This document shows, one piece after another, positions 1,040 through 40,607 of a DNA stretch of 64,000 bases. A program made the translations under genes and the position numbers. This stretch comes from an uncultured Actinomycetes bacterium (GTDB lineage: Bacteria > Actinomycetota > CADDZG01 > JAHWKV01), in NCBI GenBank assembly GCA_964501265.1, contig CAZCSK010000003.1, positions 67,480 through 131,479 of the forward strand, read 5' to 3'. The notes under the pieces were generated by a model. The model had not been told where the DNA came from. It was given only the letters and a program-made list of their open reading frames with translations, and searched no databases. Position 1 is the first letter of the stretch. The number at the start of each line of letters is the position of its first letter.

Positions 1040-3732
1040 AGAGTGCGCGCTTTTCTCCTGTGGAGGACAAGGAGCCCTAAGAGAAGCAACAGCCCAACAC
1101 TTCCACTCGCGGCGAACGTCCCAGCGAACTGTGATTCCGAATCGACCGACTCGGCCTGATCACCGGTAGAGGCGGCGATCGCGCTTGCTCCCGGCGGATC
1201 CTTAGTCTCAACGGGCAGGGCCAGATAGATCGCGGAAGTCAGCGCCGTAACGAGGACGTGGTTGCGGCAATAAGTTGTTTGGAGGCCCACTATCGAGTCG
1301 CACGTCCCTGCCCGTTGGGCGGCTGCGTCCGGCTGAAGCAGCGTAGCCCTCACCCAGCCTGGATTTGCCGGCGCTGCGAAGCGAACCTCGCCGGCAGGCA
1401 GGAGCACAGTATTGTCTTCGCTCAGAAGGGTGGCCCCATTGGCTCGTACCTGAACCATGCTGGGCCCCGGCAGTCCCGTTGCCCGAACCCGCATTGGGGT
1501 ATTTGGCGGTACCGTATCGCCAATCATCGACTCATAGAGTCCGTCGCGGTTGATGTCGGCTTCGAGGAGGAGTTGCACTGCTCCCTCTGCGGGCGGGGTG
1601 ACCGATATGGATGTCCGTCCCTCTTTGAGAGCTTGAAGGATTCCACCGACGCTCCGCTCTCGCGCAAAGACCCACGTCGTGGGGTTACCGGGGCCCTGGA
1701 TCAGCGCAGTCGAAAGCCAGTGCGAGTCGCTTCCTCCGGTCGCTGCCACCCGATTACCGCGTTGCAACCAGCACTCCCAGTAACGGGTCGCGTCCTCGTT
1801 CGAAGTACCCCCAGGCAGCGGGGGCTGAAGTTGGTGCGATATGTTCCAAACTTCGACGGTGTCGACACGAACATCAAACCCGTACCTCCAGTGCAGGCCC
1901 GACGTGTCGGAACAGTTGGCGTCGAGCGGCGTTGCGAGACCATCGGCGGGGTGGTTGGCCTGGAAAACGCCGCCGTCGGCGCGCAGGGTGTCGGCCATGC
2001 GGTTGATGGCGGCGGCCTGCATGTCCCCGGCGTTGTAGGCTCCGGCTACCGCCGTTCCGGAAACGAAAGACTCCCACTTGAAGCCCAGCATCTGGGCATG
2101 GCCACCGATCGAGTTCTCATAGCCCGGCACTCCGATCACTCCGTGAGTGCCGAATCCCGGATCGTTAACCGAGTGGGCGCCACTTTCCTCGGGATGGTCG
2201 TCGCTGTGGTGATCTGTAATGGCGAGGAAGTCCAAACCGCGAGCAGATGCCTCGAGGAATCTCTCATCCACTGTTCCTGAAAGCGTCCAGAAGTCCTCCG
2301 GAGCGGTGTTGAAATCGTCCGGCGGACAGTAGGCGTCGTGGGAGTAGCAGGTGTGGATATGAAGGTCGCCTGCCAGCCATTCGCCCGCCGGCGCGCTGGG
2401 GGCAGCGATAGAAACCCAGACCGGACTGGAGTAAGCGACGTAACGACCCGCCGCGTTCTGCACACGAATGAAGTAGTAGGGATCGGAGTAGCGGGCTTTG
2501 AGCGCAACGTCGATCGATCCAGTCCCGGACGCGACGATGCGGTTGCGCCCGGTTACGGGGTCGATGCCGCTTGTCACGACCTCGATTTGCAGGCCCGAGC
2601 GGTCGATGGTCGGGTCGGCGCTCGTAACCGATGCCCGCAGTTTCAATTTGCTGCCGTTCGGGCGTGCCAAACGCGACCCCATCAGGTTGCCGTCCACGGT
2701 AAAGTCAAGCCGGAGGTCGTTGTGGTCTCCGTCGGCCGTATTGTTAAAGTCAAAGTCTCCGGCTACGGCATAAAAGCGCCGAGCAAGCATCGCCTTACGG
2801 AGCGACGCCTCGGACCGGTCAGGGGCGAGAATAATCGTTTTCGCCCAGCGCGGCGCTCCCCAGTCGCCGTCCTCTTCCGGTTGGCCATGCAGGTCTTCTG
2901 CCCCGATCGCGCCTACATGCCAGCCTTTGTCGAGAGCGCGCACATAGTAGCCCTCAGGTGGTCCCTTGGCGCCGTATTCATTCTGACGGTTGTACATCTC
3001 GATCCCAACCATGCGGTCGTCGGCTTCGGGCACGAATCGAAAGTCTTCCCAGTCCTTCGAGGGGTCAGTTTGGGACTGCCCGGCTGCTCTTATTGCGTCC
3101 TCGACTATCTCCTTATCGCCGGGATGGTTGAAAGTGGCCAAACCATCGCTTCCGCCACCTAATTCCGGGCTATCGGTGAACCACTTCCAGAAGGTCTCCA
3201 TGGTGGCCGCGTAGCCGCCATCTGTCTTGGCGTTGGCGTCGTTCTTCGAGTAGTAGACGTTGATATGGCCGTAACGGTCAGAAGTCCATTCGAACCCGCG
3301 GATGCCGGTAAAGTCGGCGGTCGTTGCTGCTCTTGCTTGCTCAAGAGTAGCTTCCCATTTTCGTAGCGAGTCAGCAGGGTTGTGGGCACCACCCTCGGGC
3401 CCCGGACATTGCACGACCCTCACGGGGTCGAGGCATCCATCACTAACGGTGAATGGGATATCCGTGTTGTCCGAATGCTCACTTCCTGCGAGGAAGTCGA
3501 GGCCGAAGCTCTTGCCGGAGGCGTAGTAGTCGGCCGGACGCGTGCCGGGCCACCCGTCGGAGTAGGCGCTGTGCTCGTGCATCGCTCCGATCAGTTGTTG
3601 AACTTTGACCTTAGGCGTCGACGGTTTGCCGGCCCCCGCCGATTGAGGAAGGATGGTCAGCAACGCCAACGGGATCGCAAGGAGGGCAGTTCCCCTTTTG
3701 AAAAGTCTGGTCGGTTTGCTCGATCTATTCAT
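1036..3732 (-). CDS. Secreted metal-dependent phosphoesterase with two PHP-like domains and C-terminal TM anchor
   Basis: PHP motifs GDLHIHTCYSHD and LDFLAITDHH, plus an N-terminal second H-x-H region (MHEHSAYSDG). Signal peptide after MNRSSKPTRLFKRGTALLAIPLALL; the ORF-track start at 3765 was trimmed to the ATG at 3732, which has an AGGAAA RBS. C-terminus is hydrophobic helix + HRRKAR. Confidence 0.6.
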   Translation of the reverse strand: MNRSSKPTRLFKRGTALLAIPLALLTILPQSAGAGKPSTPKVKVQQLIGAMHEHSAYSDGWPGTRPADYYASGKSFGLDFLAGSEHSDNTDIPFTVSDGCLDPVRVVQCPGPEGGAHNPADSLRKWEATLEQARAATTADFTGIRGFEWTSDRYGHINVYYSKNDANAKTDGGYAATMETFWKWFTDSPELGGGSDGLATFNHPGDKEIVEDAIRAAGQSQTDPSKDWEDFRFVPEADDRMVGIEMYNRQNEYGAKGPPEGYYVRALDKGWHVGAIGAEDLHGQPEEDGDWGAPRWAKTIILAPDRSEASLRKAMLARRFYAVAGDFDFNNTADGDHNDLRLDFTVDGNLMGSRLARPNGSKLKLRASVTSADPTIDRSGLQIEVVTSGIDPVTGRNRIVASGTGSIDVALKARYSDPYYFIRVQNAAGRYVAYSSPVWVSIAAPSAPAGEWLAGDLHIHTCYSHDAYCPPDDFNTAPEDFWTLSGTVDERFLEASARGLDFLAITDHHSDDHPEESGAHSVNDPGFGTHGVIGVPGYENSIGGHAQMLGFKWESFVSGTAVAGAYNAGDMQAAAINRMADTLRADGGVFQANHPADGLATPLDANCSDTSGLHWRYGFDVRVDTVEVWNISHQLQPPLPGGTSNEDATRYWECWLQRGNRVAATGGSDSHWLSTALIQGPGNPTTWVFARERSVGGILQALKEGRTSISVTPPAEGAVQLLLEADINRDGLYESMIGDTVPPNTPMRVRATGLPGPSMVQVRANGATLLSEDNTVLLPAGEVRFAAPANPGWVRATLLQPDAAAQRAGTCDSIVGLQTTYCRNHVLVTALTSAIYLALPVETKDPPGASAIAASTGDQAESVDSESQFAGTFAASGSVGLLLLLGLLVLHRRKARTL

Positions 3733-23521: not shown

Positions 23522-24334
23522 TTATTCCCCTCCCACAGACATAGACATATTACTCGCCTTGAGACGCTCGGAATTGCCCTCGTATGCTGGGACGATCGTG
23601 TCAAGATTCGAGACGAGATGTAGAAGGCCCCACGGTGCGGCCGACTTGGCGTGCTCGGGCGCGCGTGTGGTTTCGACTTGCAATCCTTTGAGGCCAGCGC
23701 GAACGAGATCTACTATTCGCGGGTAATCGCGAGCAATGCCCCCGCCTAATACAACGATTGATCCAACGGTAGCGAGTGGCTCTCGATGGATCGCCTCGGC
23801 GATGGCCGAAGCCGCCGCAACGATGGAAGCGCTATCGATTGGTTTGGGCAGAGCCCATCCTGCAGCGACGGTCTCGAGACAACCCCGGCCCCCGCACGGG
23901 CAAACGGTAGACCCAAATCCCCCCATATGACCGAAAAGATTTTCCGCGATCAATTCTCCATCCTCGACCACCGCACCGCCGATGCCGGTCCCAAGGCCCA
24001 AGTAGATCAGACGACCCAACACCTCGGCCCCGCGCAGGCGCGCTTCCCCAAGCGCCGCGGCGCCGGCGTCGTTGACGACGATACAAGCGGGCCCCTCGAG
24101 GCCCAGCTTCTCGACGGGGTCGATGTCGGTCCACCCGAGGTTGGACGCTTCCAGGACACGGCCGTCTTCAATCAAGCCGGGGACCGCTATAGCAAGCTCA
24201 TGGCAAGTCGGACGGTGGGCGGCATCAACAAAGCTATGGGAGCCATCGGCCCTGAAAAGGACAGTCTGGATGCTACTTGCGCCGACCTCCACGCAGGCTA
24301 CGGATCGGTTCAAGACGCGATCACCTTTCCCCAT
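23522..24334 (-). CDS. ROK-family sugar kinase (no HTH domain)
   Basis: ROK motifs VACVEVGASS (ATP-binding beta-hairpin) and the C-x-C-G-x-x-G-C zinc motif (CPCGGRGC). Start uncertain: no strong RBS at 24334. Confidence 0.55.
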   Translation of the reverse strand: MGKGDRVLNRSVACVEVGASSIQTVLFRADGSHSFVDAAHRPTCHELAIAVPGLIEDGRVLEASNLGWTDIDPVEKLGLEGPACIVVNDAGAAALGEARLRGAEVLGRLIYLGLGTGIGGAVVEDGELIAENLFGHMGGFGSTVCPCGGRGCLETVAAGWALPKPIDSASIVAAASAIAEAIHREPLATVGSIVVLGGGIARDYPRIVDLVRAGLKGLQVETTRAPEHAKSAAPWGLLHLVSNLDTIVPAYEGNSERLKASNMSMSVGGE

Positions 24335-24361
24335 GTCAAGATAGCGAATGTGAATGCAAAG

Positions 24362-24375
24362 TATACATACAAATC
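24362..24375. promoter_or_regulatory. TATACATACAAATC motif in the divergent ROK-kinase/nagA promoter region
   Basis: Identical 14-mer to 7067-7080. Located between divergent starts (24334 minus, 24421 plus). Confidence 0.25.
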
Positions 24376-24420
24376 TCGGAAGGTTGCGCAGACTTGGGCG
24401 CCGGATACACTGCCCCAACG

Positions 24421-25638
24421 ATGACCAGCACCGTCCTTGCAGCGACGAGGGTCCTCGGCCCCCCAAAAGGGGACTTGCACCCGAAAGGGGACTTGCACCC
24501 GAAAGGGGACTTGCACCCGAAAGGGGACTTGCACCCGAAAGGGGATTTGGCGGCCGAAACCGATGGTCGTCCTACCGCCGAAGGTCGGTGGATAGCGATC
24601 GAGGATGGTCGGATCACCCAGGTGGGGCTCGGAACGCGGCCGCGGGGCGCCGAAGAACTCTCCGGATTCCTTACTCCCGGGTTCATCGACCTGCAGGTAA
24701 ACGGGATCGGCGACGTGGACTTTGCCGACGCGACCACCCAGGATTGGCAGCGAGCGAAAATGGAATTGCTGTCCCATGGGGTCACCGGCTTTCTTCCGAC
24801 GCTGACTTCGGGCCCACTCGATTCATATTCCGAAAAACTGACCGCTATTGGAGGAGCCAAGCGCGTAAATGTGGGGGCTACTGTTCTGGGCGCGCACCTC
24901 GAAGGGCCTTTCCTGGGAGGCGCTCCAGGCGCGCACACCAAAGAGTTCCTGCGCGCTGCCGACCCCGACTGGCTTGCTGGACTATTGAAAACATTCCCGG
25001 ACCTGATTGCCTTGATGACTCTGTCCCCTGAAGCCGATACGAACTTGCAAGCCACCCGGTTGCTGGCACGGTCAGGCGTGGTAGTTGCGCTCGGACACTC
25101 GACCGCGACTTACGATGAAGCGCGCGCCGCGGTCGACGCGGGCGCCGTGATGGTCACTCATCTCTTCAACGCAATGTCCCCCCTTGCCCATCGCGACCCC
25201 GGGCTGGTCGGCGCAGCGCTCGACGACGACAGGCTCACGCCCACTCTCATCGCGGATCTCGTGCACGTACATCCGGCCGCGCTCCGGCTAGCCATCCAAC
25301 GCAAAGAGAATGTTGTAATTGTTAGCGACTCCATCGGGCCGGATTCCAAGCTGGCGCTAAGCCTTGGGGTGCGCGTTGTCGGAGGCGCTCCAAGACTGTC
25401 CGACGGAACTCTCGCCGGATCGGTGCTCACGCTCGATGTCGCGATCGCAAATCTCGTTCGCATCGGTATCTCACTTGAGCGCGCAGTTGAAATGGCCTCG
25501 GCCATTCCGGCCGCGATCCTGGGCCTGACCGACAGGGGGGCGATTGAGCCTGGTCGACGCGCCGATCTCGTGCTGCTCGAGCCCGAGTCTCTGCGAGTCC
25601 TGAAGGTTTGGGTCGAGGGGCAACTCGTTCATGGCTGA
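24421..25638 (+). CDS. nagA: N-acetylglucosamine-6-phosphate deacetylase carrying an in-frame (PKGDLH)x5 repeat insertion near the N-terminus
   Basis: NagA motifs GFIDLQVNG, HLEGPFL, GHS(T)A and HLFNAM. N-terminal beta-strand VLAATRVL aligns to E. coli LTQGRIF. An 18-bp tandem repeat sits between strands 1 and 2. Confidence 0.75.
   Translation: MTSTVLAATRVLGPPKGDLHPKGDLHPKGDLHPKGDLHPKGDLAAETDGRPTAEGRWIAIEDGRITQVGLGTRPRGAEELSGFLTPGFIDLQVNGIGDVDFADATTQDWQRAKMELLSHGVTGFLPTLTSGPLDSYSEKLTAIGGAKRVNVGATVLGAHLEGPFLGGAPGAHTKEFLRAADPDWLAGLLKTFPDLIALMTLSPEADTNLQATRLLARSGVVVALGHSTATYDEARAAVDAGAVMVTHLFNAMSPLAHRDPGLVGAALDDDRLTPTLIADLVHVHPAALRLAIQRKENVVIVSDSIGPDSKLALSLGVRVVGGAPRLSDGTLAGSVLTLDVAIANLVRIGISLERAVEMASAIPAAILGLTDRGAIEPGRRADLVLLEPESLRVLKVWVEGQLVHG
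24462..24551 (+). repeat. 18-bp tandem repeat x5 (cccgaaaggggacttgca; three perfect central copies) encoding PKGDLH hexapeptide repeats inside nagA
   Basis: Direct reading of sequence 24462-24551. Each unit contains CCC-GAAA-GGG (GNRA-tetraloop-like mini-hairpin). Confidence 0.85.
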
Positions 25639-26944
25639 CCTGCCCGGGGGATCCGGCCCGAACGGACAGCCCTGGCTCGGCGCTGTGGAGGGCTACTACG
25701 GGCCTCCCCTCAAACCGGCCGATCGCCTCGAACTGATCGCATGGCTGGCCCATCACGGATACAACTGCTACGCCTACGGGCCCAAAGACGATCCTTTCCA
25801 CCGCGATAGCTGGAGGGAGCCATACCCAATTGAGCGCGAGTCGGAGATCAAGGAGCTGATAGCGACGGGTGCGCGAGTCGGCACCGAGGTGGCGATGGGC
25901 ATTTCGCCGGGCCTTGACTGGAAGGGCGGCGACGAAACGCCATTGGTCGCCAAGCTCGCCCGCTTCCGCGAACTCGGCGCGAAAGTGCTAGCAGTCGCCT
26001 GGGACGACGTTCCACCCGGAGGTGCCGAACTGGGGGCCGCTCACGGTTCGGCGGTTGCGCACGCAGTAAAGGAGGTCGGTGACGACCTCTTATGGTTCAC
26101 CGTCCCGACCGATTACGCCACCGCCCATGCGACAGATTACTTAAAGGCATTCGTCGACCGACTGCCCATGGAAGTCGAGGTGGCGTGGACCGGCCCCAGT
26201 ATTGTGAGCCCTCGTGTTACCGGAGCCGACGCGGCCCGTCTCGCAGCGCAGTTAGGTCGCAAGCTTCTCTTCGCCGAAAACTTTCCGGTGAATGACGGTG
26301 CCATGGGCGGAGTGCTCCACCTCGGCCCATACCCCGATCGCTCGCCCGATCTGGTGAACGAAACGACGGGTGTCTTCTGCAACTTCATGTCGTTACCAAG
26401 AGCGAGCAGAGTGGGGCTGTCGGTCGCAGCTCGCTTCTGGAAGGAGCCTCACGTAGATCGAGAAGCAGCATGGCTCGAAGCACTTAGCGATTTTTCAGGA
26501 CTCGAGCCCCTGGCTCGCGCAAGCCGGAGTTGGATCGACTCCCCCGGCCCCGACGCGGAGTTGTCGTCGTGGGCGGAGTCGGTGGTCGACGGAGACGACC
26601 GGCTCGGCTCCTATCTACAAGCCGGCTGCAGAGACCAATTGGATCCATTGCTCGCGGCGGAAGTTGAACCGTGGCTCGACCAGTGGGACCGTGAATCTCA
26701 CGCGATGCAGGCCGCCATCGCGATGCTTTCGCATCCGCATCCCCGACCGGTCGAGCTTTCCTTCCTCACTGCGACGCTCTGGGATCTCGCCCGACACGCG
26801 CGGCAACAGTTGTTCGGAATTCGATGGGCTTACTACCCGGTGACCGCTCGCGTCGGTGATCAACTCGTCGCAACACCGGAAGCGCTGGTGCGTGGCGAGA
26901 ATCTTACCGATCGCCTTTGCGCGCAAGCACTTTCAAAGAGTTAG
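25631..26944 (+). CDS. GH84-family beta-N-acetylglucosaminidase (O-GlcNAcase/NagJ-like)
   Basis: N-terminal GAVEGYYGPP...YAYGPKDDPFHR and catalytic Asp-Asp in LAVAWDDV match GH84. Start overlaps the nagA stop by 8 nt. Confidence 0.65.
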   Translation: MADLPGGSGPNGQPWLGAVEGYYGPPLKPADRLELIAWLAHHGYNCYAYGPKDDPFHRDSWREPYPIERESEIKELIATGARVGTEVAMGISPGLDWKGGDETPLVAKLARFRELGAKVLAVAWDDVPPGGAELGAAHGSAVAHAVKEVGDDLLWFTVPTDYATAHATDYLKAFVDRLPMEVEVAWTGPSIVSPRVTGADAARLAAQLGRKLLFAENFPVNDGAMGGVLHLGPYPDRSPDLVNETTGVFCNFMSLPRASRVGLSVAARFWKEPHVDREAAWLEALSDFSGLEPLARASRSWIDSPGPDAELSSWAESVVDGDDRLGSYLQAGCRDQLDPLLAAEVEPWLDQWDRESHAMQAAIAMLSHPHPRPVELSFLTATLWDLARHARQQLFGIRWAYYPVTARVGDQLVATPEALVRGENLTDRLCAQALSKS

Positions 26945-28158: not shown

Positions 28159-29609
28159 GAGCGCAGGCGTTTGCGCAGAAGGTCATTGATCATCGCTGGA
28201 TTGCCGCGGCCCCCAGTTGCCTTCATAACCTGTCCGACCATGAAACCGAAGGGTTTGTCTTCGCCCGCCCTGATCCGTTCGGCAACTTCGGGGTTGTCAG
28301 CGATGGCCCTATCTACGGCCACTTCAATTTCGGTGGTGTCCGATACCTGACTGATCCCACGTTCCTGGACGATTTCCGATGGTGGTCGTCCGCTCGTCAG
28401 CGCTTCGGCCAGCACCTCGTTGCCCTGACTCTTGGAGATGTCTCCGCCAGCGACGAGGTCGGCTACCTCCGCCAAATGCGCGGGGGTGGCATGCGTATCG
28501 GTAAGAGATCTCTCGCCCAACAGACCAAGGAGGTCGTTTACAAACATATTGGCCACCTGTTTTGAGTCCGCTACTCGCGTCGCGGCCACTGTCTCCTCAT
28601 AGAAATCTGCGATCGTCCTCGATGACGTAAGCACGGCCGCTCCCGCCGGGCCGGCATGCTCGCCAAGTCGCCTTCGTCTCTCTGCCGGCAATTCGGGGAT
28701 CTCCTCATGCAACTGCCGCAGCCACTCGACCGACGGCTCAATCGGGACGAGGTCCGGTTCCGGAAAATAGCGGTAATCGAACGCTTCCTCCTTGGAGCGC
28801 AGGGGCTTGGTGACGCCGGCCTTCTCGTCCCAGTGTCGCGTCGACTGCTCGACCGGCGCTCCCTTTGCAATCAGTTCGCTCTGCCTTTTTTCTTCGTAGA
28901 CAAGAGCCCGGTGCACCGAGCGCAGGGAGTTCATGTTCTTGACCTCCGCCTTCGTCCCGCGCTCTCCCGCTCGAGCAACCGAGATGTTGGCATCGACGCG
29001 CATCGAACCCTCTTCCATGCGCACGTCGGAGACTTCCAGATAATCCAAGATTGCCCGCAATTCCGCGGCGAAAGCGCGCGCCACATCCGGCGACGGAATG
29101 TCGGGCTCTGTGACGATCTCCACCAGCGGCGTGCCGGCGCGGTTGAAATCTTCCAACGAATACTCAGCGGCGTGGATGCGTCCCCCCTCTCCGGCGTGAA
29201 GCGACTTACCGGTGTCCTCCTCGAGGTGGACCCGAGTGATTCCAACCGCATGGACCGACCCGGCCACTTCGATATTCACCGCCCCCCTCGAACCAATCGG
29301 AATGTCGTACTGGGAGATCTGGTAGTTCTTCGGCATGTCCGGATAAAAGTAATTCTTCCGATGGAAGATCGAGCGCGGTGAGATGTCGCATCCCACGGCC
29401 ATGGCGATCTTTGTTGTGAACTCAACCGCGGTCTCGTTCGCAACGGGCAACGTGCCGGGATGGCCCAGGCAGACCGCGCACACACGAGAATTGGGCTCTC
29501 CAGCAAAGGCGACCGCACAACCGCAGAACATCTTGGTCGCAGTCCTGAGCTGGACATGGATCTCGAGGCCTATTGTAGTGACGAGATCGCTCACGTCGAC
29601 GCGCCCCAC
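28155..29609 (-). CDS. gatB: Asp-tRNA(Asn)/Glu-tRNA(Gln) amidotransferase subunit B
   Basis: [10 protein letters not shown]...KMFCGC...[13 protein letters not shown], the GatB N-terminal signature. Confidence 0.85.
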
Positions 29610-35126: not shown

Positions 35127-36020
35127 TTGGACACGCGTCGGCGCGTGGGCGCTTCCCAATTCAAGGCGGGAACCCGAGGCAGCCGTCTGGCGCTGGCGCA
35201 AACAACCTGGGTGATCGAACAACTCGCTCGGCATGCGGGTCTAGAAGTCGAGCCCGAAGTCATCGAAATGAGGAATGATCACGAACCCCTTGGCGACGGT
35301 ATCTTCGTCAAAGACATTCAACGTGCACTACTCGAAGGCGATGTCGACCTTGGCGTGCACTCTCTCAAAGACCTTCCCACCACGCCCGTCGAAGGCCTCT
35401 TGATTGCGGCGATCCCTGTACGGGCCGATCCGCGCGAGGCTCTAGTGGGAGCGACGCTTGAATCGCTTCCCGAAGCCGCACGGGTTGGAACATCGAGTCC
35501 GCGTCGCAAGGCGCAGCTGCTTAACCTTCGGCCCGACCTTCGCGTGGATGCAATAAATGGAAATGTAGATACGCGAATACGCAAGGTGGAAGCGGGCGAC
35601 TATGACGCCGTGATGCTCGCCGCGGCGGGCCTTGAGAGGCTAGGGCTCAAGGCCGACGAATTCCTACCGATCGACCGCGTGCTGCCCGCACCCGGACAGG
35701 GTGCCCTGGCGGTCGAGGTGCGCGCGGTCAACGGCGATCTCGCAGAGCTCGTTTCCCGCATCCACGACTCACAGACCCGGAACTGTGTGGTGGCCGAACG
35801 AGTCGTTCTTTCAGAGCTGGGGGGAGGATGTCTGTTGCCGGTGGCGGCTTACGGACGCATGGAAGACGGCAAGCTGGTTTTAGACGCCACGGTGATCTCG
35901 GCGGATGGCAAGGCTCGAATCACGGAGCGCACCGAAGGCGACCCCGCCAAATATCTGGCGCTCGGCAGACAAGTCGCGCGTGGTCTCATCAAACAAGGCG
36001 CTCGAACCCTGCTCAAATGA
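35127..36020 (+). CDS. hemC: Hydroxymethylbilane synthase (porphobilinogen deaminase)
   Basis: GTRGSRLAL...VHSLKDLPT motifs. Confidence 0.85.
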   Translation: MDTRRRVGASQFKAGTRGSRLALAQTTWVIEQLARHAGLEVEPEVIEMRNDHEPLGDGIFVKDIQRALLEGDVDLGVHSLKDLPTTPVEGLLIAAIPVRADPREALVGATLESLPEAARVGTSSPRRKAQLLNLRPDLRVDAINGNVDTRIRKVEAGDYDAVMLAAAGLERLGLKADEFLPIDRVLPAPGQGALAVEVRAVNGDLAELVSRIHDSQTRNCVVAERVVLSELGGGCLLPVAAYGRMEDGKLVLDATVISADGKARITERTEGDPAKYLALGRQVARGLIKQGARTLLK

Positions 36021-36820
36021 GTCTCGCGGGAAAACGGATTCTCGTGCTACGCCCCGCGCATCAAGCAGCGGAGTTGGCAGGACGCATCGAAGCGATGGGT
36101 GGACTGCCCATCGTAATTCCCGCTATTGAGGTTGAGCCCGCGCACGACTTTAACCACATAGACGAGCTGCTCGCAAAGCTGGACGAGTTCGCCTGGCTCG
36201 TGTTCACGAGCGCGAACGGAGTCGATGTGATCGCGCCGCGCATCGCCACCCAACCTGCGAACCCCCCGAAGTCAATTGGGGGGCCCGGGGGGGTAGCAGC
36301 CCCCTTCGGTAAAGACCCGCGCGCGCCAGAAGGTGCGAACCCCCCGAAGTCAATTAAGGTCGCCGCTGTCGGTCCGGGTACGAGCGCGGCTTTAAAACTT
36401 CACGGTTTCACAACCGATTGGATGCCGTCGAGTTTCGACATCGAGACACTAGCAAACACGTTGCCGGGCACGGGGCGCGTCTTGATGGTCCGGGCGCTAA
36501 GCGCTGACGCCGAAGGCGACGAGATTCTCACGCGCCGGGGGTTCGGGGTCGAACGTATCGACGCTTATCGCACGAAGCAAGTGAATGCGGTCGAGCTGGC
36601 GGAGGCCGTCACCAATATTGACGCCGTCGCATTCACGAGCGCGTCGACCGTCGAATCCTTCAGGGCCGCAATCCCCGGCGAGATAGGCGCCGTGGTCTGC
36701 AGCATCGGCCCAGCCACGAGTGCCGCGTGCGCCCGCGCCGGGCTCAAAGTCGGAGTACAAGCCCCTGAGCACACTATCCCCGGTCTCGTAAAAGCCATGG
36801 ACGAATATCTGACAAACTAG
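36017..36820 (+). CDS. hemD: Uroporphyrinogen-III synthase with a 26-aa in-frame insertion
   Basis: RILVLRP...FTSANGV typical HemD. Start at the ATG 36017 overlapping the hemC stop (ATGA); ORF-track start 35828 rejected. Confidence 0.65.
   Translation: MSLAGKRILVLRPAHQAAELAGRIEAMGGLPIVIPAIEVEPAHDFNHIDELLAKLDEFAWLVFTSANGVDVIAPRIATQPANPPKSIGGPGGVAAPFGKDPRAPEGANPPKSIKVAAVGPGTSAALKLHGFTTDWMPSSFDIETLANTLPGTGRVLMVRALSADAEGDEILTRRGFGVERIDAYRTKQVNAVELAEAVTNIDAVAFTSASTVESFRAAIPGEIGAVVCSIGPATSAACARAGLKVGVQAPEHTIPGLVKAMDEYLTN
36256..36355 (+). repeat. 22-bp perfect direct repeat (tgcgaaccccccgaagtcaatt) at 36256-36277 and 36334-36355 flanking a 56-bp GC-rich hairpin-prone segment; net 78-bp in-frame insert in hemD
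   Basis: Direct reading of sequence. Encodes ANPPKSI...ANPPKSI. Internal G6CCCG7...C5TTCGG has stem potential. Confidence 0.8.
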
Positions 36821-39067: not shown

Positions 39068-39753
39068 TGGCTGAAGATCGTAAAGTGATGCGTTACGCGT
39101 TCTATTCTGTGGATTCCTCCTGGCGAAATCTTCCCGATGAGGAGCGCACGCTTCACAAAAAGGAGTTCATCGAAGTCGTATCCCACGCACCTTGTGAAGT
39201 GCACCCCTATTCCACGGTGGGCCTGCGCGCCGATTCGGATCTCGCCCTTTGGGAAATCGCGGACGGGGCGGAGCAAATTCAAAACTTTCAGGCCGACCTC
39301 AACGCCACCGCCCTAGGGCGAGCGCTGAAGCCTAGCCACTCATTCCTGGCGATGACCAAGAAGTCCACATACTTGAAAGATCATAAGCACGAAGGCCAGG
39401 AGTTCAACATGCCGGCCGGACCGAAGGGCAGCTCCTACCTGTTCGTCTATCCGATGGACAAACTGCGCCCGTGGTATCGCCTGCCCTTCGAGGAGCGCCG
39501 CAAGATCATGGGAGCGCACTTCAAGACCGGTCATCACTACCCAGGGATAGCAATCCACACGGGTTACTCATTTGGCATAGACGACCAAGAGTTCGTGGTC
39601 GCATTCGAAGGTGAATCTCTCGGCGAATTCTTGGATCTGGTGCAGGAGTTGCGGGAGTCGGAGTCGTCGAGTTACACGGCCCGCGATGTCCCCATCTTTA
39701 CCTGCATTAAGATGCCCCTGGAACAAATCCTCAACCAACTGGATGGAGCGTGA
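39064..39753 (+). CDS. chdC: Coproheme decarboxylase (HemQ/ChdC, chlorite dismutase family)
   Basis: 229 aa, N-terminal YAFYSV...WR, chlorite-dismutase-like. Terminal gene of the heme operon. Confidence 0.7.
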   Translation: MMAEDRKVMRYAFYSVDSSWRNLPDEERTLHKKEFIEVVSHAPCEVHPYSTVGLRADSDLALWEIADGAEQIQNFQADLNATALGRALKPSHSFLAMTKKSTYLKDHKHEGQEFNMPAGPKGSSYLFVYPMDKLRPWYRLPFEERRKIMGAHFKTGHHYPGIAIHTGYSFGIDDQEFVVAFEGESLGEFLDLVQELRESESSSYTARDVPIFTCIKMPLEQILNQLDGA

Positions 39754-39773
39754 ATCGAGCCGGATTGGGGGTT

Positions 39774-40169
39774 CTATCTCGGAGCCACAACCCGTAGGCC
39801 CAAGCCGAGCGCAGCTTCAGCCATCCTCTTGTCGTAAGTGACGACCTCCTCTAACTCCGATCCCAAAGCGAGAGCCGATGCCAGGTGTATGGCGTCGAGG
39901 GTTCTGAGGGTCAGGGGTTCGAGGAAGGCTGCGCGCTCGAGCAACTCCTCATCAATCGTCAACAGATCTAATCGTCTGAGCACATCGCGGGCCCTTAGAA
40001 GAGGCTCGGGCCCAATACCGTAAGCGGCCCTTAGAACCTCCGCACGAGCCAACGCGCTCGACACTCTTCGTCCGAGCAACTGCCAATACCGACGCAGGGC
40101 AGTCGATTCCGGCTCTTTGGCGACAAGTTTCAGCAGAGCGGAGGAATCTAGGTAGACGATCGATGCCAT
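39774..40169 (-). CDS. vapC: Type II toxin VapC (PIN domain ribonuclease)
   Basis: MASIVYLDSSALLKL with conserved acidic PIN residues. 131 aa, directly downstream of the antitoxin gene. Confidence 0.7.
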   Translation of the reverse strand: MASIVYLDSSALLKLVAKEPESTALRRYWQLLGRRVSSALARAEVLRAAYGIGPEPLLRARDVLRRLDLLTIDEELLERAAFLEPLTLRTLDAIHLASALALGSELEEVVTYDKRMAEAALGLGLRVVAPR

Positions 40170-40445
40170 CTAGCGCTCGGACTTCCGCATTTCCTCAAGG
40201 ATCTCCGAGAGTAGCCGGGAGCCTTTCGGGAGACGAATCGGCGGAGGGAGTTCGGCCAGATCCTTCTCCGCCTCTCGAAGCTTGCCCGATGCCCTGAGCC
40301 GTTCCCACGCAGTGTCCTCACGGATGGGGACCAGATGGGCTACCGGGCGGCCGCGATCCGTCACCTCAAAGCTCTCCCCGCGCATGACCCGTGAGAGAAA
40401 CTTGCTGGCATTTTGCCGCAGTTCGCGCACCCCGATACGGTCCAT
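40170..40445 (-). CDS. vapB: Type II antitoxin (Phd/YefM-VapB family)
   Basis: MDRIGVRELRQNASKFLSRV...FEVTDRGRPVAHLVP, typical Phd/YefM N-terminus. Stop abuts the vapC start. Confidence 0.65.
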   Translation of the reverse strand: MDRIGVRELRQNASKFLSRVMRGESFEVTDRGRPVAHLVPIREDTAWERLRASGKLREAEKDLAELPPPIRLPKGSRLLSEILEEMRKSER

Positions 40446-40446
40446 G

Positions 40447-40461
40447 TGCTACATAGTAGCA
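40447..40461. promoter_or_regulatory. 6-3-6 palindrome TGCTAC-ATA-GTAGCA adjacent to the vapB start codon; candidate TA autoregulatory operator
   Basis: Perfect inverted repeat 2 nt upstream of the vapB ATG (40443-40445). TA operons are typically autoregulated at such sites. Confidence 0.3.
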
Positions 40462-40607
40462 TATCAATCTCCTTTAGAAGGAAGCGCATATCTTCAATTG
40501 TAGGGATGGGGTGTGACATCGCCTTCGCGCGAGGGATAGTTCTTGGGATCGGTGTATTAGGATGCCGCTGGAGCCAATCCTCAACCAACTGGATGGAGTG
40601 TGATCGC

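What the first reader, a model, noticed from the sequence alone, without database searches (positions are those of the whole stretch)
36256..36355. 78-bp in-frame insertion in hemD bounded by 22-bp perfect direct repeats (TSD-like), with GC-rich hairpin potential
tgcgaaccccccgaagtcaatt occurs twice exactly 78 bp apart inside uroporphyrinogen-III synthase, duplicating the ANPPKSI peptide. The 56-bp segment between them (G6CCCG7...C5TTCGG) can fold back. Could be a miniature insertion element footprint, a replication-slippage duplication, or an assembly artefact. It preserves the reading frame of an essential heme gene.
Basis: seen in the sequence. Interest (0 to 1): 0.55.

Follow-up and report, generated by a model that had tools for sequence, protein, structure and literature searches.

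The report
Interspersed 78-bp repeat inside hemD
The 78-bp "insertion with 22-bp target duplications" in hemD is really 1.28 head-to-tail copies of a previously undescribed 78-bp GC-rich hairpin repeat that is scattered through the genomes of a group of uncultured Actinomycetota and often sits, translated in frame, inside housekeeping genes.

Summary
In detail: TGCGAACCCCCCGAAGTCAATT occurs twice, 78 bp apart, in frame in hemD. The TSD reading is wrong. The 22-mer is the conserved right end of a 77-80-bp interspersed repeat unit. The window holds a 22-nt partial unit (36256-36277) followed by one full unit (36278-36355).

The same unit occurs at two other sites in a relative's contig, both empty in the window. 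It also occurs at 12 loci of one Actinomycetota MAG, as singles and arrays of up to 3.8 units wedged against stop codons, and at 32 metagenome loci. In the metagenome loci it is mostly a single 78-nt unit inside real genes (DnaE twice, NuoG, Lhr, L4, DUF1028).

Units share a 12-bp hairpin stem with compensatory changes. They have no target-site duplication (39 units, no signal), no Rfam match and no linked transposase in the DNA held.

A 99%-identical hemD allele keeps only one 22-mer, best read as loss of one unit. A CsoR-like gene shows 0, a remnant, 1.3 and 2 units among alleles.

In HemD the 26 extra residues form a low-confidence loop at a length-variable site. The family behaves like MIRU, RPE and REP elements. 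It is a new family of a known kind, and its mobilisation mechanism is unknown.

The parts
36017..36820 (+). hemD (uroporphyrinogen-III synthase), 267 aa, intact ORF that hosts the repeat
   Evidence: Pfam HEM4 E = 9.5e-50. The AF2 model has mean pLDDT 91.3. It lies in a heme gene cluster.
36256..36277 (+). Partial unit: a 5'-truncated copy consisting of the right end of the repeat unit (the left '22-bp repeat'; encodes ANPPKSI, residues 81-87). With the preceding C (36255) it matches the family consensus CTGCGAAC...
   Evidence: It is identical to 36334-36355. It aligns to the conserved right end of units at unrelated loci. The same partial-plus-full layout occurs in L010, L047, P0123 and P0131.
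36278..36355 (+). One complete 78-nt repeat unit (GGGGGGCCCGGGGGGGTAGCAGC ... GAAGGTGCGAACCCCCCGAAGTCAATT), translated in frame as GGPGGVAAPFGKDPRAPEGANPPKSI
   Evidence: nhmmer hit to the unit profile, E = 7e-19, and the only hit in the window. It is 97% identical to the L001 hemD unit, 86% and 79% to the L001 units B and C, and 81% to an S2 MAG unit.
36286..36297 (+). Left arm of the family-conserved hairpin (CGGGGGGGTAGC); it overlaps the first five bases of the invariant GTAGCAGC (36293-36300)
   Evidence: RNAalifold consensus and pair counts: 98.8% of cells paired, against 39-54% in slid controls. Covariation score 0.152 vs 0.060 shuffled, 0 of 500 shuffles as high. Caveat: GTAGCAGC was part of the search pattern.
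36332..36346 (+). Right arm of the hairpin (GGTGCGAACCCCCCG); it overlaps the right 22-mer. In this copy the C-to-G change at 36333 breaks one inner pair.
   Evidence: pair 21:60 is G-G in the window and L001 hemD copies.
36334..36355 (+). Right '22-bp repeat' = the right end of the full unit (encodes the second ANPPKSI, residues 107-113)
26924..26944 (+). Empty site in the window, orthologous to unit B of the relative's contig L001 (3' end of a NAGidase gene, convergent with a ROK gene)
   Evidence: Collinearity and junction comparison: window ...LCAQALSKS* vs L001 ...LCALALSGGSGG*, with the stop supplied by the element's GTAG.
29585..29600 (-). Empty site in the window, orthologous to unit C of L001 (start of gatB)
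   Evidence: Window GatB reads [15 protein letters not shown]001 GatB reads VSD[RPDFGGFAASGAPDSRPWGAATPPSP][11 protein letters not shown], an exact 26-codon insertion in the opposite element orientation.

Best explanation
The hemD segment is 1.28 head-to-tail units of a non-autonomous, GC-rich, hairpin-forming interspersed repeat about 78 bp long.

Shown: the unit is a discrete sequence family with fairly constant ends (start GGGGGG-TTC-GGGGGGG-TAGCAGC, end GCTGCGAA-CCCCCC-GAAGTCAA). It is dispersed at many unrelated loci in a clade of uncultured Actinomycetota. It occurs as singles, 1.2-1.4-unit blocks and tandem arrays. It carries no target-site duplication.

Shown: in the window/L001/Ga0183260 subfamily the unit is 78 nt (26 codons) and stop-free in three of six frames, and it is found translated in frame in many housekeeping proteins.

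Shown: the unit is present or absent between near-identical alleles at a single site.

Inferred: a unit entered hemD in an ancestor of the window and L001 lineages, at a surface loop that tolerates length variation. Unit number then changed locally by slipped-strand mispairing or unequal recombination between repeated segments. The 241-aa allele (L002) that retains a single 22-mer is the contraction product, not a naive empty site. The 22-bp direct repeat in the window is therefore the register of a tandem array.

Inferred: the extra 26 residues are a passively translated, near-neutral disordered loop.

Unknown: how units reach new sites. The absence of a TSD and the conserved single-strand hairpin next to an invariant GTAG are most reminiscent of REP/RAYT or IS200/IS605-type single-strand mechanisms, but no such enzyme was found.
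For: Family membership:
- Extra copies at L001 about 762-839 and 3486-3563.
- 12 loci, all in one GTDB genome, with arrays of period 77-80 bp.
- 32 metagenome loci.
- 63 full units aligned at 78% mean column identity.

The 22-mer is the unit's right end.

Empty versus filled sites:
- The window is empty at L001 units B and C.
- L003 is empty at hemD.

No TSD: 3.90 vs null 3.89 +/- 0.16 nt across 39 units.

Hairpin with compensatory changes: pair 17:67 is GC 38, UA 17, CG 2, AU 1.

Local amplification: within-array identity 92% vs 81% between loci; loop region 89% vs 61%.

Copy-number polymorphism:
- hemD 0.28 vs 1.28 units between alleles that are 99% identical on both sides.
- CsoR-like alleles with 0 units, a remnant, 1.3 and 2 units.

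In-frame carriage in real proteins, in three different frames:
- GatC, PurS, HisI, L4, ECH, CcmH, CsoR.
- DnaE twice, NuoG, Lhr at the same site in two metagenomes, DUF1028 split, DacB-like.

HemD loop: pLDDT 56-66 and coil for residues about 78-113 in an otherwise 91-pLDDT model. The loop is length-variable in homologues.
Against: - No mobilising enzyme or donor was identified. A RayT probe found nothing credible in 422 kb.
- The polarity of the hemD events cannot be proven with four alleles. Divergence is mosaic, with a recombination breakpoint at the element. L001's left junction keeps host-like sequence (CCCGGCGAGC + CCCCC), so independent insertions or gene conversion are not excluded.
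- Only one copy exists in this 64-kb window.
- Parts of the unit are invariant by construction of the search pattern.
- Reads were not available to exclude a local assembly error in the 1.28-unit state.
- Neutrality of the HemD loop is inferred from a model, not measured.
Confidence: 0.85

Rival explanations
1. Classical MITE-type transposition into hemD, with the 22-bp repeats being a target-site duplication of host sequence.
For: A perfect 22-bp direct repeat flanks a foreign core. An allele with a single 22-mer exists and looks like an empty site (L002).
Against: The 22-mer is element sequence found at unrelated loci. The true element-free allele, L003, lacks it entirely. The family shows no TSD in three filled/empty pairs (microhomology of 2 nt or less) or statistically across 39 units. 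A 22-bp TSD would also be exceptionally long for a bacterial transposon (general knowledge).
Confidence: 0.02
2. Site-directed integration of one 78-nt period (for example from a circular or tandem donor) by recombination at a pre-existing solo right-end remnant. The L002 allele would then be ancestral, and the two 22-mers would be attL/attR-like products.
For: Recombination of a 78-nt circle at the 22-mer would yield exactly 22 + 56 + 22. The 'partial right end + full unit' layout recurs (window, L010, L047, P0123, P0131). Insert sizes are exactly one period in hemD (L001 vs L003) and in gatB.
Against: No recombinase, circle or donor was observed. It still needs an earlier event to create the solo remnant. 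Ordinary contraction of tandem repeats explains the same data with known mechanisms. Within-array units are more alike than between-locus units, as expected for local slippage.
Confidence: 0.08
3. The repeat is primarily a protein-level module (a selected Gly/Pro-rich linker or tag, GGxGGVAAP...PEAANPPKS) that spreads between genes because the peptide is useful.
For: The same peptide recurs in at least 9 unrelated proteins, mostly in one frame. It is predicted disordered, which is typical of linkers.
Against: Real proteins use at least three different frames and both orientations, giving unrelated peptides. In the S2 MAG the same DNA is intergenic, with periods of 77, 79 and 80 nt and stops in all frames. 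The best-conserved peptide parts coincide with the DNA hairpin arms, and the variable part with the loop. Presence or absence between 99%-identical alleles suggests near-neutrality.
Confidence: 0.04
4. Assembly or binning artefact: the 1.28-unit arrangement in this contig is a mis-join of reads from alleles with and without the element.
For: The exact 267-aa protein is seen on only one contig. Mixed populations with both alleles evidently exist (L002 vs window).
Against: An independent assembly has the core at the same site (L001). The layout recurs elsewhere. The ORF remains intact and in frame. A 78-bp period is shorter than typical reads (general knowledge).
Confidence: 0.03

Closest known systems
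Mycobacterial interspersed repetitive units (MIRU / MIRU-VNTR; Supply et al. 1997, as summarised in PMC3184786)
   Same: Both occur in an actinobacterial host and have units of 40-100 bp (here 77-80). Both are dispersed at tens of loci, often as head-to-tail arrays whose unit number varies between strains. Both are GC-rich with internal inverted repeats, and their ends overlap the stop or start codons of flanking genes, including within operons (here the L4/L23 junction in L019).
   Different: There is no detectable sequence relation: the two-anchor pattern hit no genome other than S2_bin.28 among 185,579 species representatives. MIRUs are described as intergenic with tetranucleotide direct repeats at filled sites, whereas this family shows no TSD and is frequently internal to coding sequences.
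Rickettsia palindromic elements (RPE; Ogata et al., as summarised in PMC10969869 and PMC3733652)
   Same: Both are small palindromic repeats inserted in frame into many unrelated housekeeping genes and translated as extra peptide segments at structurally permissive positions. In both, a high fraction of copies is intragenic.
   Different: RPEs are about 100-150 bp, specific to Rickettsia (Alphaproteobacteria) and tagged by CGTC. This unit is 78 bp, carries GTAG, also forms tandem arrays, and lives in free-living-type, high-GC Actinomycetota.
GTAG-tagged REP elements / REPINs mobilised by RAYT (PMC3733652, PMC2817692)
   Same: Both have a GC-rich stem-loop next to a conserved GTAG and lack a TSD. 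Both prefer the 3' side of ORFs and the space between convergent genes. In both, the GTAG donates TAG stop codons (L014, L001-B), and copies occasionally sit inside genes, including dnaE.
   Different: REPs are 20-40 bp with short loops and typically occur as inverted pairs (BIME/REPIN). Here the unit is 78 bp with a loop of about 36 nt, GTAG is internal, and arrays are strictly head-to-tail. No RAYT was found, and the phyla listed in the passages read from PMC3733652 did not include Actinobacteria.
In-frame VNTR in Mycobacterium tuberculosis leuA (57-bp units; PMC2704214)
   Same: In both, a tandem repeat with a unit length that is a multiple of three lies inside a biosynthetic enzyme gene, its copy number is polymorphic, and the reading frame stays intact.
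   Different: As summarised in the PMC2704214 abstract, the leuA repeat is a polymorphism at one gene, whereas this unit is dispersed at many unrelated loci.

Membership tests
MITE (miniature inverted-repeat transposable element) | Target-site duplication flanking each copy | tested here: not met
   Three filled/empty comparisons give microhomology of 2 nt or less. Across 39 single units the longest flank repeat is 3.90 nt vs a null of 3.89 +/- 0.16.
MITE (miniature inverted-repeat transposable element) | Terminal inverted repeats matching those of an autonomous IS | tested here: inconclusive
   A 12-bp subterminal inverted repeat (hairpin stem) exists. It is not at the termini, and no parent IS was seen in the DNA held.
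REP / REPIN (RAYT-associated) | Short (20-40 bp) palindrome with GTAG at one end | tested here: inconclusive
   GTAG is invariant in 63 of 63 units and abuts the stem. However, the unit is 78 nt, the loop is about 36 nt and GTAG is internal. GTAG was part of the search pattern.
REP / REPIN (RAYT-associated) | Copies arranged in alternating (inverted) orientation | tested here: not met
   All arrays are head-to-tail direct repeats.
REP / REPIN (RAYT-associated) | Associated RAYT (Y1 transposase) gene flanked by the repeats | tested here: inconclusive
   E. coli RayT tblastn/phmmer against 422 kb of family-bearing loci gave a best E of 0.049, in a membrane-protein ORF, which is spurious. Sensitivity is low and no whole genome was available.
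REP / REPIN (RAYT-associated) | Located downstream of ORFs or between convergent genes; GTAG may supply the TAG stop | tested here: met
   L008, L015, L016 and L001-B fill the gap between convergent genes. TAG comes from GTAG in L014 and L001-B.
MIRU-type interspersed tandem units | 40-100-bp unit, dispersed at many loci, in tandem with variable copy number | tested here: met
   Periods of 77-80 bp, at 12 + 32 + 3 loci, with 1 to 3.8 units. Allelic copy-number variation in hemD and a CsoR-like gene.
MIRU-type interspersed tandem units | Sequence homology to the mycobacterial MIRU consensus / presence in Mycobacterium | tested here: not met
   The exact two-anchor pattern hit only MAG S2_bin.28 among 185,579 species-representative genomes. 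This is a limited test, because it required an exact pattern and no MIRU consensus was available to align.
Rickettsia palindromic elements | In-frame insertion into many unrelated protein-coding genes | tested here: met
   HemD, GatB, GatC, PurS, HisI, L4, ECH, CcmH, CsoR, DnaE (twice), NuoG, Lhr, DUF1028.
Rickettsia palindromic elements | Rickettsia host, about 100-150 bp, CGTC tag | tested here: not met
   The host contigs are labelled Actinomycetota. The unit is 78 nt and the consensus contains GTAG but no CGTC.
CRISPR array | Identical repeats separated by unique spacers | tested here: not met
   The variable 'loop' part is 89% identical within arrays and recognisably homologous between loci.
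Known structured RNA families (Rfam 15) | Match to a curated covariance model | tested here: not met
   No match at E of 1 or less in L001, L008, L009 and L011, 44.8 kb on both strands.

The most novel reading that the evidence does not exclude
An undescribed family of 78-nt (26-codon), stop-free, hairpin-forming selfish repeats has colonised the coding sequences of core genes (dnaE, nuoG, hemD, gatB/C, rplD and others) in a clade of uncultured, free-living-type Actinomycetota, at a frequency comparable to RPEs in Rickettsia. It additionally expands and contracts like a VNTR, so it generates protein-length polymorphism within populations. It may move by a TSD-free single-strand or one-period (circular or tandem donor) mechanism that has not been characterised.
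Probability: 0.45. Interest if true: 0.6.

Novelty: new member of a known kind. Interest (0 to 1): 0.45.

Why it matters
For annotation, this turns an odd-looking indel in an essential heme gene into a recognisable repeat that can be masked or modelled. It also warns that the 'TSD' is a tandem-register artefact.

Biologically, it shows that massive in-frame colonisation of housekeeping genes by a small palindromic repeat is not confined to Rickettsia. That phenomenon is best known from RPEs in reduced intracellular genomes, and here it occurs in high-GC environmental Actinomycetota.

The family also has two contrasting subfamilies. One is intergenic and array-forming, with 77/79/80-nt units. 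The other is intragenic, with 78-nt units that are open in three frames. Comparing them offers a natural experiment on how selfish DNA becomes coding-compatible.

The unit-number polymorphisms could serve as strain markers in metagenomes, as MIRU-VNTRs do for M. tuberculosis.

Tried and rejected
- **TSD reading:** rejected.
- **Stand-alone hairpin of the 56-bp core:** the single-sequence fold is no better than shuffles. Only the family-level stem is supported.
- **Exact look-up of the window HemD and of the NCBI proteins P0001 and P0127:** not on record, so the source genome could not be fetched. Cluster look-up gave no names or accessions.
- **Rfam:** no match.
- **tRNA-derived origin:** ARAGORN finds no tRNA in the units. 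L017 merely has units between two tRNA-Ser genes.
- **CRISPR-like reading of the arrays:** rejected, because the 'spacers' are homologous.
- **Plasmid and phage collections:** no match.
- **Literature search for the motif strings:** only unrelated primer hits.
- **RAYT probe:** nothing credible.
- **Resolving the order of events at the hemD left junction from four alleles:** not possible because of mosaic divergence.
- **Target-site preference:** no clear motif beyond a weak C at position -1 (20 of 39 units).

Full report
**1. The observation**

The 22-mer TGCGAACCCCCCGAAGTCAATT is present at 36256-36277 and 36334-36355, 78 nt apart and identical. It occurs nowhere else in the window at up to three mismatches, and never in shuffles. 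The 56-nt core is likewise unique in the window.

Both copies lie in an intact ORF at 36017-36820 (+). That ORF is HemD (Pfam HEM4, E = 9.5e-50) and is flanked by hemC and hemB. The reading frame is preserved and ANPPKSI is encoded twice.

Folded alone, the region is no more stable than dinucleotide shuffles on either strand (z = -0.39 and -0.26).

**2. It is an insertion relative to orthologues**

A search of 5.8 billion proteins gave four close relatives:
- P0001: identical to the window protein.
- P0002: 262 aa, carries the core but not the left 22-mer.
- P0003: 241 aa, which is 267 minus 26, with a single ANPPKST.
- P0004: 243 aa, with nothing at the site.

These differences are visible in the protein alignment.

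In a 61-sequence alignment only the window protein and P0002 have the segment. Fifty-six homologues have 1-10 residues in that loop, and three distant ones have unrelated 17-23-residue loops.

An AlphaFold2 model is confident overall (mean pLDDT 91.3). Residues about 78-113 are the exception: they form a coil with block pLDDT of 56-66, between helix 66-77 and strand 114-117. I infer that the insert is a tolerated surface loop at a length-permissive site.

**3. The core is not hemD sequence but a dispersed repeat**

A short-word BLAST of the region against the relatives' contigs found two further copies in L001, the ENA contig that encodes P0002. They lie at about 762-839 and 3486-3563. There is also a fragment at the edge of L003 and L004.

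The window is collinear with L001 and empty at both sites.

Unit C is an exact 26-codon insertion after codon 3 of gatB, in the opposite orientation. The window reads [14 protein letters not shown], and L001 reads VSD[RPDFGGFAASGAPDSRPWGAATPPSP][11 protein letters not shown].

Unit B replaces the last two codons of a NAGidase gene and supplies its TAG stop.

All copies share TCGGGGGRGTAGCAGC, about 28 nt, then GAAGSTGCGAAYCCCCYGAAGTCA. The window's '22-bp TSD' is therefore the element's own right end.

**4. Extent of the family**

I scanned 185,579 species-representative genomes with a two-anchor pattern. It hit 12 loci, all in one MAG (Actinomycetota bacterium S2_bin.28, JBHELT01). Units there occur singly and in head-to-tail arrays. 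TRF reports arrays of 3.8 units with periods of 79, 80 and 77 bp.

The same pattern hit 32 metagenome loci, 30 of them from one JGI sample, Ga0183260.

A profile HMM found 34 units in the first set, and only one in the 64-kb window.

Sixty-three full units align with 78% mean column identity. The family has no Rfam match, no plasmid or phage match, and no literature hit for its motifs.

Caveat: the columns GGGG.GTAGCAGC and AGAAG.TGCGAA are invariant partly because the search pattern required them.

**5. Anatomy**

Units start at (CC)GGGGG(G)TTCGGGGG and end at CCCCYGARRTCAAnn.

RNAalifold predicts a 12-bp stem closing a loop of about 36 nt. On the 63-unit alignment:
- 98.8% of cells pair, against 39-54% when partners are slid.
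- The covariation score is 0.152, against 0.060 when shuffled (0 of 500 shuffles as high).
- Pair 17:67 shows GC 38, UA 17, CG 2 and AU 1.
- Twenty-three one-sided changes keep pairing as G·U on this strand.

The outer helix's 3' arm was not part of the search pattern, so its pairing is not imposed by the search.

In the window copy, a C-to-G change at 36333 breaks one inner pair.

**6. No target-site duplication**

The three filled/empty comparisons allow at most 1-2 nt of junction microhomology.

Across 39 single units, the longest direct repeat straddling the unit averages 3.90 nt. Mismatched flank pairs give 3.89 ± 0.16 nt. The window copy is the only outlier, because its left flank is a partial unit.

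**7. Genomic context: two subfamilies**

In S2_bin.28 the units are 77, 79 or 80 nt, have stops in every frame, and are intergenic. They are wedged against stop codons and often exactly fill the gap between convergent genes (L008, L015, L016). TAG is donated by GTAG in L014. TGA is donated by the reverse-complemented end TTGATC in L008, L009 and L012. The flanking frames are ordinary genes.

In the window, L001 and Ga0183260 lineages, the unit is 78 nt and open in three of six frames. Twenty-seven of 39 blocks lie inside longer open frames.

Pfam confirms real genes with domains on both sides of the insert (positions):
- NuoG.
- DnaE, with two units in opposite orientations.
- Lhr helicase, at the same site in two metagenomes.
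- A DUF1028 domain split in two.
- A D-Ala-D-Ala carboxypeptidase.

A peptide search found the +0-frame peptide GGxGGVAAPxxxxPRAPEAANPPKS in CsoR-like, GatC, PurS, L4, enoyl-CoA hydratase (internal), DUF4383 and CcmH proteins. It found the reverse-frame peptide in HisI. In L019 the unit forms the C-terminus of L4 inside the S10 operon.

Real proteins use at least frames +0, -1 and -2. The DNA, not one particular peptide, is therefore what is conserved.

**8. Dynamics**

Units within an array are more alike (92%; loop region 89%) than units at different loci (81%; loop region 61%). This indicates local amplification.

Alleles of a CsoR-like protein in one 90%-identity cluster carry 0 units, an NPPNQ remnant, 1.3 units or 2 units.

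The 'partial right end + full unit' layout of the window recurs in L010, L047, PurS (P0123) and P0131.

**9. History at hemD**

Between conserved flanks, the alleles carry the following 'middle' segments:

| Allele | Length of middle | Content |
|---|---|---|
| L003 | 18 nt | no element |
| L002 | 33 nt | contains a solo 21-nt element right end |
| L001 | 96 nt | host-like CCCGGCGAGC + CCCCC + one unit |
| window | 111 nt | 22-nt partial unit + one unit |

The window and L002 are about 99% identical on both sides, so the 78-bp difference is a within-population polymorphism.

L002 already contains element sequence, so it is not a naive empty site. Slippage cannot create a core from nothing. I therefore read L002 as a one-unit contraction. 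This is an inference.

Divergence is mosaic. Left of the insert the window is 96% identical to L003 and 81% to L001. Right of it the window is 98% identical to L001 and 64-74% to L003. Recombination has evidently occurred at or near the element, and the exact origin of the two different left junctions cannot be resolved.

**10. Comparison with known elements**

The behaviour combines traits of three known kinds:
- MIRUs: actinobacterial, 40-100-bp units, interspersed and tandem, with ends overlapping flanking genes (PMC3184786).
- RPEs: frequent in-frame insertion into housekeeping genes (PMC10969869).
- GTAG-tagged REPs: a stem-loop next to GTAG, location downstream of and between convergent ORFs, donation of TAG stops, and occasional intragenic copies including dnaE (PMC3733652).

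An in-frame VNTR in a biosynthetic enzyme has a precedent in M. tuberculosis leuA (PMC2704214).

Membership in each family fails on at least one defining feature:
- No TSD, so not a MITE.
- Head-to-tail rather than inverted arrangement, a 78-nt unit, and no RAYT detected, so not a REP.
- Different host and tag, so not an RPE.
- No sequence relation detectable, so not a MIRU.

It is therefore a new family of a known kind of element.

**11. Verdict**

The TSD interpretation is wrong. The 'miniature element' idea is right in spirit. The feature is 1.28 units of an undescribed interspersed, hairpin-forming, VNTR-like 78-bp repeat that is frequently translated in frame. The mechanism of spread is unknown, while local copy-number change by slippage or recombination is well supported. 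Interest is moderate.

Noticed in passing
window 24462-24549: A separate 18-bp tandem repeat, 4.9 copies (CCCGAAAGGGGACTTGCA, 97% match), encodes PKGDLH five times. It lies near the N-terminus of a 453-aa ORF (24277-25638 +) that I did not annotate. It is unrelated in sequence to the 78-bp family.
   Followed up: partly
window 36127-36526 vs L001/L003: A recombination breakpoint coincides with the repeat. The 100 bp to the left are 96% identical to L003 and 81% to L001. The 200 bp to the right are 98% identical to L001 and 64-74% to L003.
   Followed up: partly
L017 424-541: A full unit plus a truncated second unit fill the spacer between two tRNA-Ser genes (323-412 and 542-629, both minus strand). 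The truncated unit runs directly into the 3' end of the second tRNA.
   Followed up: partly
L040 1426-1502 and 2950-3030: A dnaE gene (1141 codons) carries two units in opposite orientations, both in frame. One lies between the PHP and polymerase-core domains and the other just after the finger domain. REP insertions in dnaE/dnaE2 have been noted in other phyla (PMC3733652).
   Followed up: partly
L049 1902-1984 and L039 2678-2760: An identical in-frame unit (…IGGFGGVAAPNPYDLRAPEAANPLKSIV…) sits at the same position of Lhr helicase in contigs from two different JGI metagenomes, Ga0183260 and Ga0136614.
   Followed up: no
L019 8453-9165: In the ribosomal protein operon the interval between L6 and S5, where L18 is expected, holds only two short ORFs without Pfam hits, on opposite strands. 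No repeat unit was detected there.
   Followed up: no
L001 13758-14414 / window ~39700-40560: A PIN/PhdYeFM toxin-antitoxin pair lies just downstream of the heme cluster in L001. The blastn alignment to the window breaks and shifts around this point, which suggests an indel or rearrangement.
   Followed up: no
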